24,678 bases of DNA from a virus (taxonomy: Duplodnaviria; Heunggongvirae; Uroviricota; Caudoviricetes): IMG/VR virus record IMGVR_UViG_2690316166_000006, positions 1 to 24,678 of that record; one strand, 5' to 3'. Shown piece after piece: positions 4,397 to 22,100 of this stretch (within the stretch, counting starts at the first letter, position 1; the number at the start of each line of letters is the position of its first letter). The notes beneath the pieces are model-generated. The model was given only the letters and a program-made list of their open reading frames with translations. It made no database searches and was not told the origin of the DNA. Position numbers and translations under genes: made by a program.

Positions 4397-4404
4397 AGGT
4401 GAAC

Positions 4405-4980
4405 ATGGATTTTAGAATGACTGAACAACCACGGACCATAAAAATTTATAATTTGCTGGCCGGAACTAATGAATTTATTGGTGAAGGTGATGCATACATT
4501 CCACCTCATACAGGTCTACCTGCAAACAGTACCGATATTGCACCGCCAGATATTCCGGCAGGCTTCGTGGCTGTTTTCAACGGTGATGATGCATCGTGGC
4601 ATCTCGTTGAAGATCATCGTGGTAAAACGGTTTATGACGTGGCATCAGGGGACGCGTTATTTATTTCTGAACTCGGTCCGTTACCGGAAAATGTTACTTG
4701 GTTGTCGCCGGAAGGGGAATATCAGAAGTGGAACGGTACAGCTTGGGTGAAAGATGCAGAAGCAGAAAAACTATTCCGGATCCGGGAGGCGGAAGAAACA
4801 AAAAACAGCCTGATGCAGGTAGCCAGTGAGCATATTGCGCCGCTTCAGGATGCTGCAGATCTGGAAATCGCAACGGAGGAAGAAACCTCGTTGCTGGAAG
4901 CCTGGAAAAAGTATCGGGTGTTGCTGAACCGTGTTGATACATCACTATCTCCAGATATCGAGTGGCCAAGTCAACCATAA
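4405..4980 (+). CDS. tfa: Tail fibre assembly protein (lambda Tfa family)
   Basis: ORF 4399..4980. The sequence [57 protein letters not shown] and the C-terminal [24 protein letters not shown] match lambda Tfa from memory. The ATG at 4405 is preferred, with GAGGTG upstream. Confidence 0.9.
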
Positions 4981-9739: not shown

Positions 9740-9904
9740 CTACCTCGCCTGCCCCTTTTCGTCCTCATCCAACTTTCTGATAGCCGTAGAATCAATACCC
9801 GCCGCCATACACACATCAGATGCAACAAACCACGGATCGCCGTTAATCATCACTACACGTACCTGATGCTCTTCCTGAAAGGAAAATACTGCTAACGCGC
9901 TCAT
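9740..9904 (-). pseudogene. Truncated Bro-N / phage-antirepressor N-terminal fragment (54 codons)
   Basis: Minus-strand translation MSALAVFSFQEEHQVRVVMINGDPWFVASDVCMAAGIDSTAIRKLDEDEKGQAR* carries the Bro-N signature (F.F....VRV..I.G.PWFVA.DVC.......A...LD.DEKG) and then stops. Full Ant/Bro proteins run several hundred residues. The ATG overlaps the upstream ORF stop (ATGA), with AAGGAGG upstream. It is absent from the ORF track because it is under 60 aa. Confidence 0.6.
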
Positions 9905-10134
9905 TCAGCCTCCTTACCGTGCAGCAATTGCGACGAGAGCGATGCTGAATATCCCTGTGCTTCGTGTGTTAACTCACACGCAATTTGAAGGAGTTTCCCT
10001 GCTTCTGAGAGATAAATCGACGCCTCACAGCTGGAGACTGTCCGATGGGCTGATGATACGAGCGCATAGACCTGAGCCAGACGTTCATCCAACGATTCCA
10101 GCAGGCCAACAGTGTTCATTTTTACCTGATTCAT
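9901..10134 (-). CDS. Small hypothetical protein (77 aa) translationally coupled to the Bro-N fragment; sits where icd lies in P1-type anti-immunity operons
   Basis: ORF 9901..10134 with ATG start and GAGGTG 6 nt upstream. The positional analogy is inference only. Confidence 0.45.
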   Translation of the reverse strand: MNQVKMNTVGLLESLDERLAQVYALVSSAHRTVSSCEASIYLSEAGKLLQIACELTHEAQGYSASLSSQLLHGKEAE

Positions 10135-10460
10135 GCAGCCACCTCGCGCACCGGAATACGGGCAGACAATACCAGGACAAACCGGCTGGCGAACTGGCGA
10201 CGAGCTTCCCGTTCAGATGACGCGATGGTGGAAAGATGATGGATGTGTGACTTTTTGTCTGTGCGAACGACTGCCGCAAATTTGAATTTGAACATGGTAT
10301 GCACTCTTGTTTGGTAAAACAGTGCTACCACCAGAGTTGAGAATCTCTATGGGGTGGTAGCCCAAGCGGGGTTCTCAACACCGGCCCAAACGACACCGGC
10401 CAGCCTTTCGGCTGCCCCACCTGAGCCACCATAATTCGGATATGCGCAGGCTCATACACA

Positions 10461-10484
10461 CAAAAAAACACGCTGGCGCGTGTT
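10461..10484 (-). terminator. Rho-independent terminator on the minus strand
   Basis: On the minus strand: stem acacgc / gcgtgt with loop gcca, then seven U (plus-strand A-run 10462-10468). Confidence 0.55.
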
Positions 10485-10594
10485 GTGCGTCGTTCGGATT
10501 TCGGGGTTGAGAGTCCCGGCTACGGGATTTACCGCAGCGAAGTAACTTTACCGTCAAAACGACGCACACGTCAATAATTTGCAAAGGCATTTTA
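10485..10594 (-). ncRNA. Candidate structured small RNA or leader upstream of the anti-immunity genes
   Basis: No credible ORF. A long-range inverted repeat gtgcgtcgtt (10485-10494) / aacgacgcac (10557-10566) encloses internal hairpins (cccggctacggg) and the region ends at the minus-strand terminator. Ends are not defined. Confidence 0.3.
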
Positions 10595-16144: not shown

Positions 16145-16741
16145 TCATCTACCCTCAACCATGAATGATTTGATCGTTCCGACTATTTGGTGAACAAATT
16201 CAAGATCGCTTTTCCTGAAGATAGCGCGTTGTGAATTTGTTCCGTCCAGATAGTAATTTTCATCATCAAAACGGGCCAGGCGCTGGATGGTGATATTTCC
16301 TGCAGTATCACGAACCAGAACATCCTCGCCGGGGACCAGTTCCAGCGCAGAATCGACCAGGAGAAAATCGCCAGGCTGATAGTTTCCCTGCGCCAGATTG
16401 CTGATAGTTAACGCATAAACAGTATTGCGCTGGCTGATGAATGGCAGGAATCGCTCAGTATTTGGAACCTGTCCTGGCTTCCACTCTTCATCAGGTCCAC
16501 TTTCAGTTGTGCCAATAACAGGAATGCGATCAGGGTCATATTCTGTCCCATACAGCACCCAATGCACTGGCTTGCGTAAGCATTTAGCCAGGGCAATACC
16601 TATCTCCAGTGACGGCATTACGTCGCCACGTTCTAAGTTTTGGACGCCTGCAATAGAGATATCGACAGCCTCAGCAACTTCTCGCAACGTCAGCTTCATC
16701 TCTAAACGGCGTGCTTTCAGTCGTTCGCCTCGTGTTTTCAT
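16145..16741 (-). CDS. cB: Prophage repressor CB (CI-like: N-terminal HTH plus C-terminal LexA/S24-like domain)
   Basis: 198 aa. N-terminal HTH (LTLREVAEAVDISIAGVQNLERG) and a C-terminal domain of S24-peptidase-like length. Divergent from a cro-like gene across an operator-bearing intergenic region. Confidence 0.85.
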   Translation of the reverse strand: MKTRGERLKARRLEMKLTLREVAEAVDISIAGVQNLERGDVMPSLEIGIALAKCLRKPVHWVLYGTEYDPDRIPVIGTTESGPDEEWKPGQVPNTERFLPFISQRNTVYALTISNLAQGNYQPGDFLLVDSALELVPGEDVLVRDTAGNITIQRLARFDDENYYLDGTNSQRAIFRKSDLEFVHQIVGTIKSFMVEGR

Positions 16742-16763: not shown

Positions 16764-16805
16764 TTATAGCTGGCTATAAAATTTATTTATTATAGCTGGC
16801 TTTAA
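16764..16805. promoter_or_regulatory. Immunity operators: palindrome TTATAGC-TG-GCTATAA (16764-16779) and a second copy TTATAGCTGGCTTTAA (16790-16805)
   Basis: Two related 16-bp sites 26 bp apart between cB and cro. A TATAAT at 16821-16826 lies 6 bp upstream of the cro ATG. Confidence 0.6.
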
Positions 16806-20670: not shown

Positions 20671-20997
20671 ATGGCGCTGACACCGGCAGAACGGCAAAGA
20701 AGACGCAGGGAACGGTTGAAGAAGGAAGGAACATCAAGACGTGACTGGATTCTGGAACCTGACGAGTTACGTATGTTGGGGGAAATTTGTGTATTGCGTA
20801 GACCAGGGCGAGTTCCATATTCAGAGAACGAAGTCATCGGACTGCTGATCAGGAAAAACTATAAGGAGTTGCAGAAACAGCTATCTACTACTTGTCCGCG
20901 ATGTGGTCAAAAAATGCCTGTTTCAGAATGCATTTTTGATGGTGAAGGCTCATGCCACCTTACAACCACGAGGCTGAAACTTGCGCTCAAAGTGTGA
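20671..20997 (+). CDS. Hypothetical basic protein with a CPRCG zinc-ribbon-like motif (108 aa)
   Basis: ORF with AGGAGGA upstream. Arg-rich N-terminus (ERQRRRRERLKKEG). Confidence 0.5.
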   Translation: MALTPAERQRRRRERLKKEGTSRRDWILEPDELRMLGEICVLRRPGRVPYSENEVIGLLIRKNYKELQKQLSTTCPRCGQKMPVSECIFDGEGSCHLTTTRLKLALKV

Positions 20998-21005
20998 CTG
21001 GTCAC
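20994..21005. repeat. 12-bp palindrome GTGACTGGTCAC (GTGACYRGTCAC family, copy 3)
   Basis: Overlaps the stop of the 20671..20997 ORF and precedes the RBS of the small ORF at 21016. Confidence 0.4.
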
Positions 21006-21015
21006 GGAGGGATAA

Positions 21016-21171
21016 ATGGACAAAAAGGCATTGCTTTTTGAAATGATACGAAAACGGAGCGAAAAGAGCTTTTCTGATGGTGGTGATGGGCTTTTGAAAG
21101 TGGTTGGGCGAGGCGTAGGAAGGGAACATAAGTATCGGACTACAAAGATATTTAACCAGTTAATCCATTGA
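21016..21171 (+). CDS. Small ORF (51 aa)
   Basis: GGAGGG lies 6 nt upstream of the ATG. Not in the ORF track because it is under 60 aa. Confidence 0.3.
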   Translation: MDKKALLFEMIRKRSEKSFSDGGDGLLKVVGRGVGREHKYRTTKIFNQLIH

Positions 21172-21172
21172 A

Positions 21173-21189
21173 AGTTGGCTATAAAATTT
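21173..21189. promoter_or_regulatory. Operator-like motif AGTTGGCTATAAAATTT matching the cB-cro operator region
   Basis: 16 of 17 identical to 16768-16784 (AGCTGGCTATAAAATTT). Confidence 0.45.
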
Positions 21190-21198
21190 GAGTTTTAC

Positions 21199-21217
21199 CC
21201 TGTAATTTTATACAGTA
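21199..21217. promoter_or_regulatory. LexA (SOS) box CTGT-N8-ACAG
   Basis: cCTGTaattttatACAGta fits the E. coli SOS box pattern. It overlaps a promoter-like TTGAGT-17-TACAGT and lies 25 bp upstream of the ATG at 21240. No other CTGT-N8-ACAG site was seen on manual scanning. Confidence 0.6.
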
Positions 21218-21239
21218 TCAAATAACCTTTTTTAATTAA

Positions 21240-21458
21240 ATGGTATTAGATTCAATGACTGAAGCACCTGTATCAACTCTTGAAGAACTCGGATCAAACC
21301 TAAAAGACATCGACGCCGTTTTGGATCTGGTTAGCGTTGCTCTGGCTTCTCCAGAAGCCAGCTTGCATCTTGGCGAGATTTCACGACTTGTTAGTATGTC
21401 GCGGGAGATTGCTCAGAATTGCCAACAAGTTATTGCTGTTGAGTGTTTGCATCATTGA
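21240..21458 (+). CDS. Small acidic protein (72 aa); candidate SOS-inducible antirepressor
   Basis: ORF directly downstream of the LexA box and the operator-like site. No RBS seen. The function is inferred from context only. Confidence 0.4.
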   Translation: MVLDSMTEAPVSTLEELGSNLKDIDAVLDLVSVALASPEASLHLGEISRLVSMSREIAQNCQQVIAVECLHH

Positions 21459-21501
21459 TACACACCCCGCCCTTCTGGACGGGGTAGCGAAAAGGGTCTA
21501 A

Positions 21502-21789
21502 TCAATAGACGGCATTAATATTAATCGTTGCACCGCATGCTTGGGCATATTTTGATAAAGTTTTCATGCTTGCCCCTAAAGGATTGCTTTCCAGGCGGCT
21601 GATAGCTGACGGGCGCAATCCCATTCGTTCAGCCAGAGCTGACTTCGTTAAACCTGCTCTTTCCCTCATTTCGTATAACATTTCGACCATCTCCAGCTCT
21701 TTATCGGCCTCTTCATATCCTTTGATGGCTTCTGGAGTGTTGAGAAGTTTTTCTTTTACTTCGTTAAACGGGATGCCTTTCGCTTTCAT
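21502..21789 (-). CDS. HigA-like antitoxin (XRE-family HTH)
   Basis: 95 aa. LTKSALAERMGLRPSAISRLESNP is an HTH typical of HigA-type antitoxins. Sits downstream of, and overlapping, the toxin gene. Confidence 0.75.
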   Translation of the reverse strand: MKAKGIPFNEVKEKLLNTPEAIKGYEEADKELEMVEMLYEMRERAGLTKSALAERMGLRPSAISRLESNPLGASMKTLSKYAQACGATININAVY

Positions 21790-22100
21790 CAGTTCATCTC
21801 CTTCAGGCGAGTTCTGGCGATTTCGATAGCCTTCACCGGTGTTTTCTGTGTCTTTTTTACAAATGCATGCAATAGATAAATTTCGTTACCAGTCGCGTAG
21901 GCGTACAGCGTTCTTGCGATGTTTTTATCCCCTACTCGTAGTTCAAAAAGCCCTCCACCTATTACACGGCTATGGGGCATCTTCAGTTTGTTGCCTTCCT
22001 TCTCCAGTCGCTCAATTAATCTGGTCATGCGACCTCGCAAATCATCTGGTAGTTCAAGCAGTTCATCCAGTGCTGCAGGGTGGGTTATCACGTTAAACAT
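21789..22100 (-). CDS. HigB/RelE-superfamily toxin (phage Gp49-like family)
   Basis: 103 aa. LFELRVGDKNIARTLYAYATGNEIYLLHAFVKKTQKTP matches the Gp49-like killer-protein pattern. Toxin-first order is typical of higBA. Confidence 0.7.
   Translation of the reverse strand: MFNVITHPAALDELLELPDDLRGRMTRLIERLEKEGNKLKMPHSRVIGGGLFELRVGDKNIARTLYAYATGNEIYLLHAFVKKTQKTPVKAIEIARTRLKEMN

What the first reader, a model, noticed from the sequence alone, without database searches (positions are those of the whole stretch)
21173..21458. LexA box plus repressor-operator-like motif upstream of a 72-aa acidic ORF: candidate SOS-inducible antirepressor
A CTGT-N8-ACAG site (21200-21215) overlaps a promoter-like TTGAGT-17-TACAGT, and the 17-bp copy of the cB-cro operator flank lies just upstream. 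The downstream ORF is small and acidic. This architecture matches LexA-controlled antirepressors such as 186 Tum, and N15 induction is reported to depend on an SOS-regulated antirepressor. The truncated Bro-N gene elsewhere makes this the likely functional induction trigger.
Basis: partly seen in the sequence, partly recalled or inferred. Interest (0 to 1): 0.7.

Follow-up and report, generated by a model that had tools for sequence, protein, structure and literature searches.

The report
LexA-controlled antirepressor gene antC, N15-type
This is the counterpart, in an N15-like linear plasmid-prophage of Escherichia, of the published N15 gene antC: a small protein kept silent by the host DNA-damage repressor LexA, which after DNA damage inactivates the phage repressor CB. 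The finding is correct but already explained.

Summary
CCCTGTAATTTTATACAGTA (21198-21217) is the only CTGT-N8-ACAG in the window. It is by far the best LexA-box match (19.0 bits; next 11.6; 2 of 1000 random windows reach it). It covers the spacer and -10 of TTGAGT-17-TACAGT, upstream of an acidic 72-aa ORF (21240-21458).

The window is an N15-like phage-plasmid. N15 carries an unannotated homologue (57% identity) at the same place, between gene 47 and the gp48/gp49 toxin-antitoxin pair, behind one of only two strong LexA boxes in its genome. The literature describes N15 AntC as a LexA-controlled antirepressor of CB. The window ORF is therefore an antC orthologue.

Box, -35 and ORF are conserved in 61 related loci (dN/dS 0.10-0.26), down to 31% protein identity.

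Corrections:
- The first ATG is not conserved, so the start may be ATG 21255 (67 aa).
- The "17-bp operator copy" is 16/17 (14 exact). It occurs only in this sublineage and breaks a feature shared by all known CB operators, so it is probably not an operator.
- The protein is unrelated to 186 Tum. It is a distant paralogue of the immA gene 31 product (antA), which is also in the window.

Databases call it "hypothetical protein". Novelty is low.

The parts
21169..21184 (+). Operator-like 16-mer TGAAAGTTGGCTATAA. Its right half plus flank (21176-21189) is identical to CB operator OR3 and its flank; its left half is degenerate. Probably not a functional operator.
   Evidence: 13/16, 14 nt exact, 5 of 5000 resamples; present in 4 of 32 promoter variants only. 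PMC4997575: all operators carry T-A-N10-T-A, and half-sites are not bound.
21188..21193 (+). -35 hexamer TTGAGT of the antC promoter (TTGCGG, TTGCGA or TTGCCA in relatives).
   Evidence: The TTTG columns are invariant in 32 distinct upstream sequences, and the spacing to the -10 is fixed at 17. The promoter assignment is inferred, not mapped.
21198..21217 (+). LexA (SOS) box CCCTGTAATTTTATACAGTA, core CTGT-N8-ACAG at 21200-21215. It covers the promoter spacer and the -10.
   Evidence: 19.0 bits, unique in the window, 2 of 1000 random windows; column identity 0.93 against 0.54-0.82 in the flanks, and TATACAGTA invariant.
21211..21216 (+). -10 hexamer TACAGT, inside the 3' half of the LexA box.
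   Evidence: invariant in all relatives. In phage 186 the annotated -10 of p95 likewise lies inside its LexA box.
21242..21245 (+). Invariant GGTA. It is either codons 1-2 of the long form or a weak Shine-Dalgarno-like element 10-13 nt before ATG 21255.
   Evidence: column identity 0.99, retained where the first ATG is lost.
21240..21458 (+). antC orthologue, long form: 72 aa, pI 4.4, coordinates include the stop codon.
21255..21458 (+). antC orthologue, short form (67 aa) from the only ATG conserved in all relatives. It may be the start used in this lineage.
   Evidence: the YDC107-type has ATG GTA TGA, and the phiKO2 and KpLi5 types lack the first ATG; many records annotate 67 aa; distant relatives keep MVNE(S)M, so the long form is probably ancestral.
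21464..21485 (.). G+C-rich hairpin between the convergent antC and antitoxin genes. It has no U-tract and may be a weak bidirectional terminator.
   Evidence: z-score only -1.2; no terminator called. N15 has a clearer hairpin at the same place.
16145..16741 (-). cB, the prophage repressor and presumed target of AntC. It is 78% identical to N15 CB and has an HTH plus a degenerate S24-like domain.
   Evidence: CB is non-cleavable according to PMC4997575 and PMC10432266.

Best explanation
The region is the antC locus of an N15-like (Ravinvirus-type) linear plasmid-prophage.

In the lysogen, host LexA binds the box at 21198-21217. That box covers the spacer and -10 of a weak sigma-70 promoter (TTGAGT-17-TACAGT), so antC stays silent. 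DNA damage activates RecA, LexA cleaves itself and the promoter fires. The product is a small acidic protein of 67 or 72 aa, predicted to be a two-helix hairpin. It binds the non-cleavable prophage repressor CB (gene at 16145-16741) and removes it from its operators, which starts lytic growth.

What is shown here: the box, its statistical strength and its conservation; purifying selection on the ORF; synteny and homology with the N15 ORF.

What comes from the literature on N15: AntC is LexA-controlled and acts against CB.

What is inferred: that the unannotated N15 ORF is the published antC, and that the window protein acts on the window's CB.
For: 1. The window is an N15 relative: 89% identical to Ravinvirus phage YDC107_1 in this region, 98-99.8% to Escherichia plasmids, and in N15 gene order.
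2. N15 has an unannotated homologue (57% identity, E 2e-17) between gene 47 and gene 48, preceded by CCCTGTGTTTATATACAGTA.
3. The whole N15 genome holds only two strong LexA boxes. One precedes the umuD-like gene 26 and the other precedes this ORF.
4. Published work states that N15 AntC is LexA-controlled, lies outside immA and immB, and acts on CB. CB is non-cleavable.
5. In 61 loci with 32 distinct upstream sequences, the box, the -35 and the spacing are conserved well above the flanks. The same holds in a relative with only 31% protein identity (L065).
6. dN/dS is 0.10-0.26, and the ORF is intact in 33 distinct sequences.
7. PHROG hits: phrog_6301 (E 4e-36) and phrog_10889 'anti-repressor' (E 1e-6).
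8. The product of the N15 gene 31 homologue in the immA operon (antA) is a paralogue: same PHROG, and hhalign probability 93%.
9. The window's CB is 78% identical to N15 CB.
Against: - The primary paper (Mardanov & Ravin 2007) could not be read here. The identification of the N15 ORF with antC therefore rests on inference and my recollection.
- No experiment exists for this particular protein, which is only 57% identical to the N15 one.
- The promoter hexamers match consensus at just 8 of 12 positions.
- There is no good ribosome-binding site before either ATG.
- No database names any family member as an antirepressor.
Confidence: 0.88

Rival explanations
1. Dual control. Besides LexA, the prophage repressor CB binds the operator-like site at 21169-21184, just upstream of the -35, and modulates antC by feedback activation or extra repression in this sublineage.
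For: A 14-nt exact word is shared with OR3 and its flank, and the 16-mer matches at 13 of 16 positions. No other such site exists in the window outside the cB-cro region. The match arose in 5 of 5000 resamples. All four differences from the YDC107-type promoter go towards the operator sequence. CB is described as having rather low binding specificity.
Against: The motif is present in only 4 of 32 promoter variants, and N15 matches at only 8 of 16 positions at the homologous place. The site has G at position 2, where all five known operators keep the T of T-A-N10-T-A. Half-sites of OR3, and an OR3 changed only at its outermost bases, were not bound by CB.
Confidence: 0.08
2. A LexA-regulated small protein with a different job, for example modulating the SOS response, cell division or the adjacent toxin-antitoxin pair, rather than an antirepressor of CB.
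For: There is no functional domain hit in Pfam or NCBIfam. Every database name is 'hypothetical protein'. The link between the N15 ORF and antC is inferred, not read from the primary paper.
Against: In N15 the only other strong LexA box belongs to the umuD-like gene. The protein is a paralogue of the immA gene 31 product and hits an 'anti-repressor' PHROG. The family is confined to N15-like elements, whose CB cannot be cleaved and which therefore need such a factor.
Confidence: 0.04
3. A chance palindrome next to a chance ORF, with no regulatory function.
For: The bare CTGT-N8-ACAG pattern is expected 0.32 times per window. The promoter hexamers are weak.
Against: The full 20-mer score is reached in 2 of 1000 random windows. 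Box, -35 and spacing are conserved across 32 distinct sequences while the flanks diverge. The ORF is under purifying selection.
Confidence: 0.01

Closest known systems
AntC of coliphage N15 (Mardanov & Ravin 2007, J Bacteriol 189:6333)
   Same: Homologous ORF (57% identity) at the same position, between gene 47 and the convergent gp48/gp49 toxin-antitoxin pair. It has the same LexA box over the -10, a -35 with the same TTG start (TTGAGT here, TTGCGG in N15) at the same 17-nt spacing, and the same kind of non-cleavable CB repressor (78% identical).
   Different: 43% of residues differ. The SD-like TGGTAG that precedes the first ATG in N15 is replaced by a T-run, so the start may have moved to the second ATG (67 aa against 75 aa). 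This lineage also has an operator-like motif upstream of the -35 that N15 lacks.
Product of N15 gene 31 (antA) in the immA operon icd-antA-antB; the window copy is at 9901-10134, minus strand
   Same: Same PHROG (phrog_6301, E about 1e-36 for both). Profile-profile probability 93%. Shared S-x-EAS-(L/I)-(H/Y)-L-x-E core. Similar size and predicted helical character.
   Different: About 24% identity. antA is expressed from Pa under control of the C4-type cA antisense RNA (Rfam hit at 10350-10436), not under LexA. It belongs to the anti-immunity system rather than to SOS induction.
Tum of coliphage 186
   Same: It works the same way: a LexA box overlapping the -10 of a dedicated promoter (p95) drives an antirepressor that inactivates a non-cleavable repressor by binding it.
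   Different: No sequence relationship (hhalign probability 0.1%). Tum is 146 aa with a DinI-like C-terminal half; this protein is 67-72 aa with no DinI match.
Gifsy prophage antirepressors GfoA/GftA (Lemire et al. 2011, PMC3121763)
   Same: Small LexA-controlled antirepressors encoded outside the immunity region, acting by binding the repressor.
   Different: Those sit in a dinI-ant-irsA operon in integrated lambdoid prophages. I did not compare the sequences directly, and the exhaustive profile search found no family members longer than about 100 aa other than three long proteins (484-1212 aa) matched only by several short stretches.

Membership tests
N15 AntC (LexA-controlled antirepressor of N15-like phage-plasmids) | Sequence homology to the N15 ORF between genes 47 and 48 | tested here: met
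   tblastn gives 57% identity over 68 aa, E 2e-17. Both hit phrog_6301, at E 3.6e-36 and 1.4e-26.
N15 AntC (LexA-controlled antirepressor of N15-like phage-plasmids) | Same genomic position: after the gene 46 and gene 47 homologues, convergent with the gp48/gp49 (HTH antitoxin / Gp49-RelE toxin) pair | tested here: met
   The arrangement is also kept in L065 at 31% protein identity.
N15 AntC (LexA-controlled antirepressor of N15-like phage-plasmids) | LexA box overlapping the promoter | tested here: met
   The box scores 19.0 bits and is unique in the window; 2 of 1000 random windows reach that score. It is conserved in 32 distinct upstream sequences.
N15 AntC (LexA-controlled antirepressor of N15-like phage-plasmids) | The unannotated N15 ORF is the gene published as antC | tested here: inconclusive
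   The primary paper is not held. The identification is inferred: N15 has only two strong LexA boxes, one at the umuD-like gene 26 and one at this ORF. My recollection of the paper agrees.
N15 AntC (LexA-controlled antirepressor of N15-like phage-plasmids) | The protein binds CB and relieves repression | not testable with these tools
   This needs a pull-down, two-hybrid or reporter assay. Only the presence of a CB 78% identical to N15 CB could be shown.
N15 AntC (LexA-controlled antirepressor of N15-like phage-plasmids) | Expression is induced by DNA damage in a LexA-dependent way | not testable with these tools
   This needs a reporter in lexA+ and lexA(Ind-) hosts.
186 Tum | Homology to Tum, including the DinI-like C-terminal half | tested here: not met
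   hhalign of the family profile against Tum gives probability 0.1%. There is no DinI hit in Pfam.
Bro-N / Ant-type antirepressors (P22 Ant, N15 gp30) | Bro-N or KilA/Ant domain | tested here: not met
   No such Pfam or PHROG hit for the ORF. The window's Bro-N ORF is a separate 54-aa remnant at 9740-9904.
CB operator (16-bp sites OR1-3, OL1-2) | T-A-N10-T-A with both half-sites and intact outermost bases | tested here: not met
   The candidate TGAAAGTTGGCTATAA has G-A-N10-T-A and a left half that matches OR3 at 4 of 6 positions. Half-sites, and sites changed at their outer bases, are not bound (PMC4997575).

The most novel reading that the evidence does not exclude
In this Escherichia sublineage the antC promoter has acquired a copy of the right half of operator OR3 plus its flank, immediately upstream of the -35. 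This would let CB, or Cro, tune the SOS trigger directly. That would be a feedback loop between a repressor and its own antirepressor, which has not been described for N15.
Probability: 0.07. Interest if true: 0.4.

Novelty: already known. Interest (0 to 1): 0.15.

Why it matters
Scientifically it adds little, because LexA-controlled antirepression of CB by AntC was published for N15 in 2007 and this is the orthologous locus.

The practical value is in annotation. The gene is unannotated in both N15 records searched here (NC_001901 and AF064539). It is called 'hypothetical protein' (or Gp47 in phiKO2) in every record seen here. The exact window protein occurs on at least 1000 public contigs from E. 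coli and Shigella. There is no Pfam or NCBIfam model for it.

The comparative data assembled here could seed such a model and improve induction predictions for the widespread N15-like phage-plasmids of Escherichia, Klebsiella, Enterobacter and Citrobacter. They comprise a conserved box and promoter, an AntA/AntC family of about 30 clusters at 50% identity, and a confident two-helix hairpin model.

Tried and rejected
- Reading the primary paper and two N15 reviews by PMC id, DOI and PubMed id: none is held. Four full-text searches found only citing sentences and no coordinates for antC.
- Pfam and NCBIfam: no significant family.
- Names in the large protein collections: all 'hypothetical protein' or similar.
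- Foldseek of the AlphaFold model (pLDDT 90, two helices) against PDB and BFVD: no hits at all. A two-helix hairpin is not informative for fold search.
- Promoter and terminator scanner: no calls in 20950-21550.
- Rfam: nothing credible in 21000-21600, so an RNA element is not a rival.
The viral-contig scan gave one distant N15-like contig, L065.
- A covariation test of the operator-like motif against each phage's own operators was not possible, because the operators are nearly identical across the whole family.
- Homology to 186 Tum: rejected.

Full report
**What is in the sequence**

The region reads: gene 47 homologue (21016-21171), then cattgaaagTTGGCTATAAAATTTGAGTtttacCCTGTAATTTTATACAGTAtcaaataaccttttttaattaaATGGTATTAGATTCAATG..., then an ORF running to 21458.

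- CTGTAATTTTATACAG at 21200-21215 is the only CTGT-N8-ACAG in the window. Because 0.32 such sites are expected by chance, the bare pattern says little.
- A 20-nt weight matrix gives stronger evidence. I built it from 22 E. coli LexA boxes recalled from memory, so it is approximate. The site scores 19.0 bits against a median of 19.8 for the training boxes. The next best site in the window scores 11.6, below the weakest training box.
- Only 2 of 1000 first-order Markov random windows contain a site that good.
- TTGAGT (21188-21193) and TACAGT (21211-21216) are 17 nt apart. Each matches its consensus hexamer at 4 of 6 positions, and the scanning tool, which needs 9 of 12, did not call a promoter.
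- The ORF encodes 72 aa with pI 4.4, 11 acidic and 3 basic residues.

**Where the window comes from**

The window is an N15-like linear plasmid-prophage.

- It carries partition genes, a 633-aa protelomerase, a 1331-aa RepA, then cB, cro and Q in N15 order.
- The antC region is about 89% identical to Escherichia phages YDC107_1 (classified as Ravinvirus) and PhiR46_1, and 98-99.8% identical to several Escherichia plasmids.
- CB is 78% identical to N15 CB over its full length.

**The N15 counterpart**

- N15 has no annotated gene between gene 47 and gene 48. It does have an ORF there (MVYDSMTDAAV..., 75 aa) that is 57% identical to the window ORF (E 2e-17). It is preceded by ccCTGTGTTTATATACAGta at the same distance.
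- Scanning the whole 46,375-bp N15 genome with the same matrix gives just two strong LexA boxes: 25.1 bits, 34 nt before the umuD-like gene 26, and 21.7 bits before this ORF. Everything else scores 10.3 or less.
- Open-access papers state that N15 induction is started by antC, whose product acts against CB; that antC is a separate gene outside immA and immB; and that it is under direct LexA control (PMC4488713; PMC3121763; PMC11652158). All cite Mardanov & Ravin 2007.
- CB of N15 and phiKO2 lacks the RecA cleavage site and catalytic residues, and N15 CB is not proteolysed after ciprofloxacin (PMC4997575; PMC10432266).
- I could not open the 2007 paper. That the N15 ORF is antC is therefore an inference from these facts, and it agrees with my memory of the paper.

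**Conservation**

tblastn finds the ORF in 13 phage records and 213 plasmid records from Escherichia, Klebsiella, Enterobacter, Citrobacter and Shigella. I compared 61 loci, which gave 32 distinct upstream sequences.

- The 16-nt box has a mean column identity of 0.93, and its 3' half TATACAGTA is invariant.
- Flank identity is 0.54 for the six bases between the -35 and the box, 0.71 for the leader and 0.71 for the end of gene 47.
- The TTTG of the -35 is invariant, and no gaps occur between the -35 and the -10.
- Variation inside the box falls in the central positions. Two Klebsiella variants (the phiKO2 type) have ATGT in place of CTGT but still score 16.8 bits.
- A much more distant N15-like contig (L065, 31% protein identity) keeps the arrangement gene 46, gene 47, TTTGCGG, TACTGTATGTTTGTACAGTA, small ORF and convergent toxin-antitoxin pair.

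**The ORF is a real gene**

It is intact in 33 distinct nucleotide sequences (67-71 aa counted from the conserved Met). Third codon positions vary most (35, 27 and 53 variable columns at positions 1, 2 and 3). Pairwise dN/dS is 0.10-0.26, and four of the five other reading frames carry stop codons in every sequence.

**Start codon**

- ATG 21240 has no Shine-Dalgarno sequence.
- In the YDC107-type the same ATG is followed by GTA TGA. The phiKO2 and KpLi5 types have CTG or CGG there instead.
- The only ATG present in every relative is the one at 21255, which gives 67 aa. An invariant GGTA lies 10-13 nt upstream of it.
- N15, Enterobacter and Citrobacter relatives have an SD-like TGGTAG or TAAGGA before the first ATG. 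More distant relatives keep MVNE(S)M at the protein level. The long form is therefore probably ancestral.
- In the window lineage that SD-like element is replaced by a T-run. Both starts remain possible. Public annotations are split between 72 and 67 aa.

**The protein family**

- There is no Pfam or NCBIfam match.
- The protein hits phrog_6301 (unknown function, E 3.6e-36) and, more weakly, phrog_10889, annotated 'anti-repressor' (E 1.4e-6).
- The window ORF at 9901-10134 (minus strand) is the homologue of N15 gene 31. It lies in the immA operon downstream of a C4-type antisense RNA (Rfam RF01695 at 10350-10436). It hits the same two PHROGs, at E 2.4e-36 and 2.4e-18.
- The two subfamilies share the core S-x-EAS-(L/I)-(H/Y)-L-x-E. 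hhalign gives probability 93% and E 3e-7 over 54 columns. AntC and the gene 31 product (antA, by its place in the icd-antA-antB operon as I recall it from Ravin et al. 1999) are therefore distant paralogues under different controls.
- An exhaustive profile search of 1.84 billion representatives found only 31 proteins at E <= 0.001, nearly all 40-97 aa. The family is small and, from the loci I could inspect, tied to N15-like elements.
- AlphaFold predicts two long helices (residues 3-31 and 33-66) with mean pLDDT 90. Foldseek found nothing in PDB or BFVD.
- 186 Tum is not related (hhalign probability 0.1%). However, the annotated -10 of its promoter p95 also lies inside its LexA box.

**The operator-like motif**

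- The window's OR3 is TTATAGCTGGCTATAA (16764-16779) and OR2 is TTATAGCTGGCTTTAA (16790-16805).
- The antC upstream site TGAAAGTTGGCTATAA (21169-21184) is the only other match with up to 3 mismatches in the window, where 0.17 matches in total are expected by chance. The exact shared word, including the flank, is 14 nt. That arose in 5 of 5000 resamples.
- The motif is real, but three results argue against function. First, it occurs in only 4 of 32 promoter variants, and N15 matches the operator at only 8 of 16 positions at the homologous place. Second, it has G where all five characterised operators have the T of T-A-N10-T-A. Third, OR3 half-sites, and an OR3 altered only at its outermost bases, are not bound by CB or Cro.
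- Because the operators are almost identical across the whole family, a covariation test was impossible. I rate a functional CB site at about 7-8%.

**Mechanism**

LexA occludes the -10 of PantC in the lysogen. SOS-induced self-cleavage of LexA releases transcription. AntC then binds CB, which cannot be cleaved, and lifts repression at OR and OL, starting lytic growth and raising replication.

- Shown here: the site, its conservation, coding selection and orthology.
- From the literature on N15: LexA control and action on CB.
- Inferred: that this holds for the 57%-identical protein in this window.

**Verdict**

The feature is the known antC system of N15-like phages, so novelty and interest are low. 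The useful by-products are a correction of the likely start codon, evidence that the operator-like motif is probably incidental, the AntA/AntC paralogy, and the point that this common gene is still unannotated or labelled 'hypothetical protein' in public records.

Noticed in passing
window 9740-10538, minus strand: A complete immA-type locus. It comprises an isrK-like RNA (RF01394, 10463-10538), a C4 antisense RNA (RF01695, 10350-10436, the cA RNA), an icd-like ORF (10131-10331), an AntA-like ORF of 77 aa (9901-10134), and a Bro-N ORF cut down to 54 aa (9740-9904; N15 gp30 is 264 aa) that ends 46 nt from the telN stop codon.
   Followed up: partly
window 9901-10134 (-) and 21240-21458 (+): The immA gene 31 homologue (antA) and the LexA-controlled antC are distant paralogues: same phrog_6301, about 24% identity, hhalign probability 93%. 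The phage thus carries two related small antirepressor-type proteins, one under antisense-RNA control and one under LexA control.
   Followed up: yes
window 21016-21171 (+): The gene 47 homologue is only 51 aa, against 73 aa in N15 and 80 aa in YDC107_1. The central part is missing, and the PHROG match is split into two stretches. This looks like an in-frame internal deletion.
   Followed up: no
L001 4427-4445 (YDC107_1); also PhiR46_1 and pCAVP367: In this sister lineage the first ATG of antC is followed by GTA TGA, forming a two-codon mini-ORF. The real start is then 8 nt further on. phiKO2 and KpLi5 have CTG or CGG in place of the first ATG.
   Followed up: partly
L013 (N15) 21658-21677: The second strong LexA box of N15 (TACTGTATAAAAAAACAGTT, 25.1 bits) lies 34 nt upstream of the umuD-like gene 26. 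The window has no comparable box or gene in the corresponding region.
   Followed up: no
window 4748-4946 (+): A full-length match to Rfam IS009 (RF02111, 221.8 bits), just upstream of the partition genes and inside or overlapping the ORF at 4399-4980.
   Followed up: no
window 21502-22100 (-): A convergent toxin-antitoxin pair, homologous to N15 gp49 and gp48: a Gp49/RelE-like toxin (21789-22100, PF05973) and an HTH_3 antitoxin (21502-21789). Its stop codon lies 44 nt from the antC stop, with a shared G+C-rich hairpin in between.
   Followed up: partly
L065 2940-3225 (IMG/VR contig IMGVR_UViG_3300046694_000244): A distant N15-like contig whose AntC is only 31% identical to P0096, the lead sequence of the distant-relative query alignment A5. 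It still has TTTGCGG, 7 nt, a near-perfect LexA box TACTGTATGTTTGTACAGTA, and the same neighbouring genes.
   Followed up: partly
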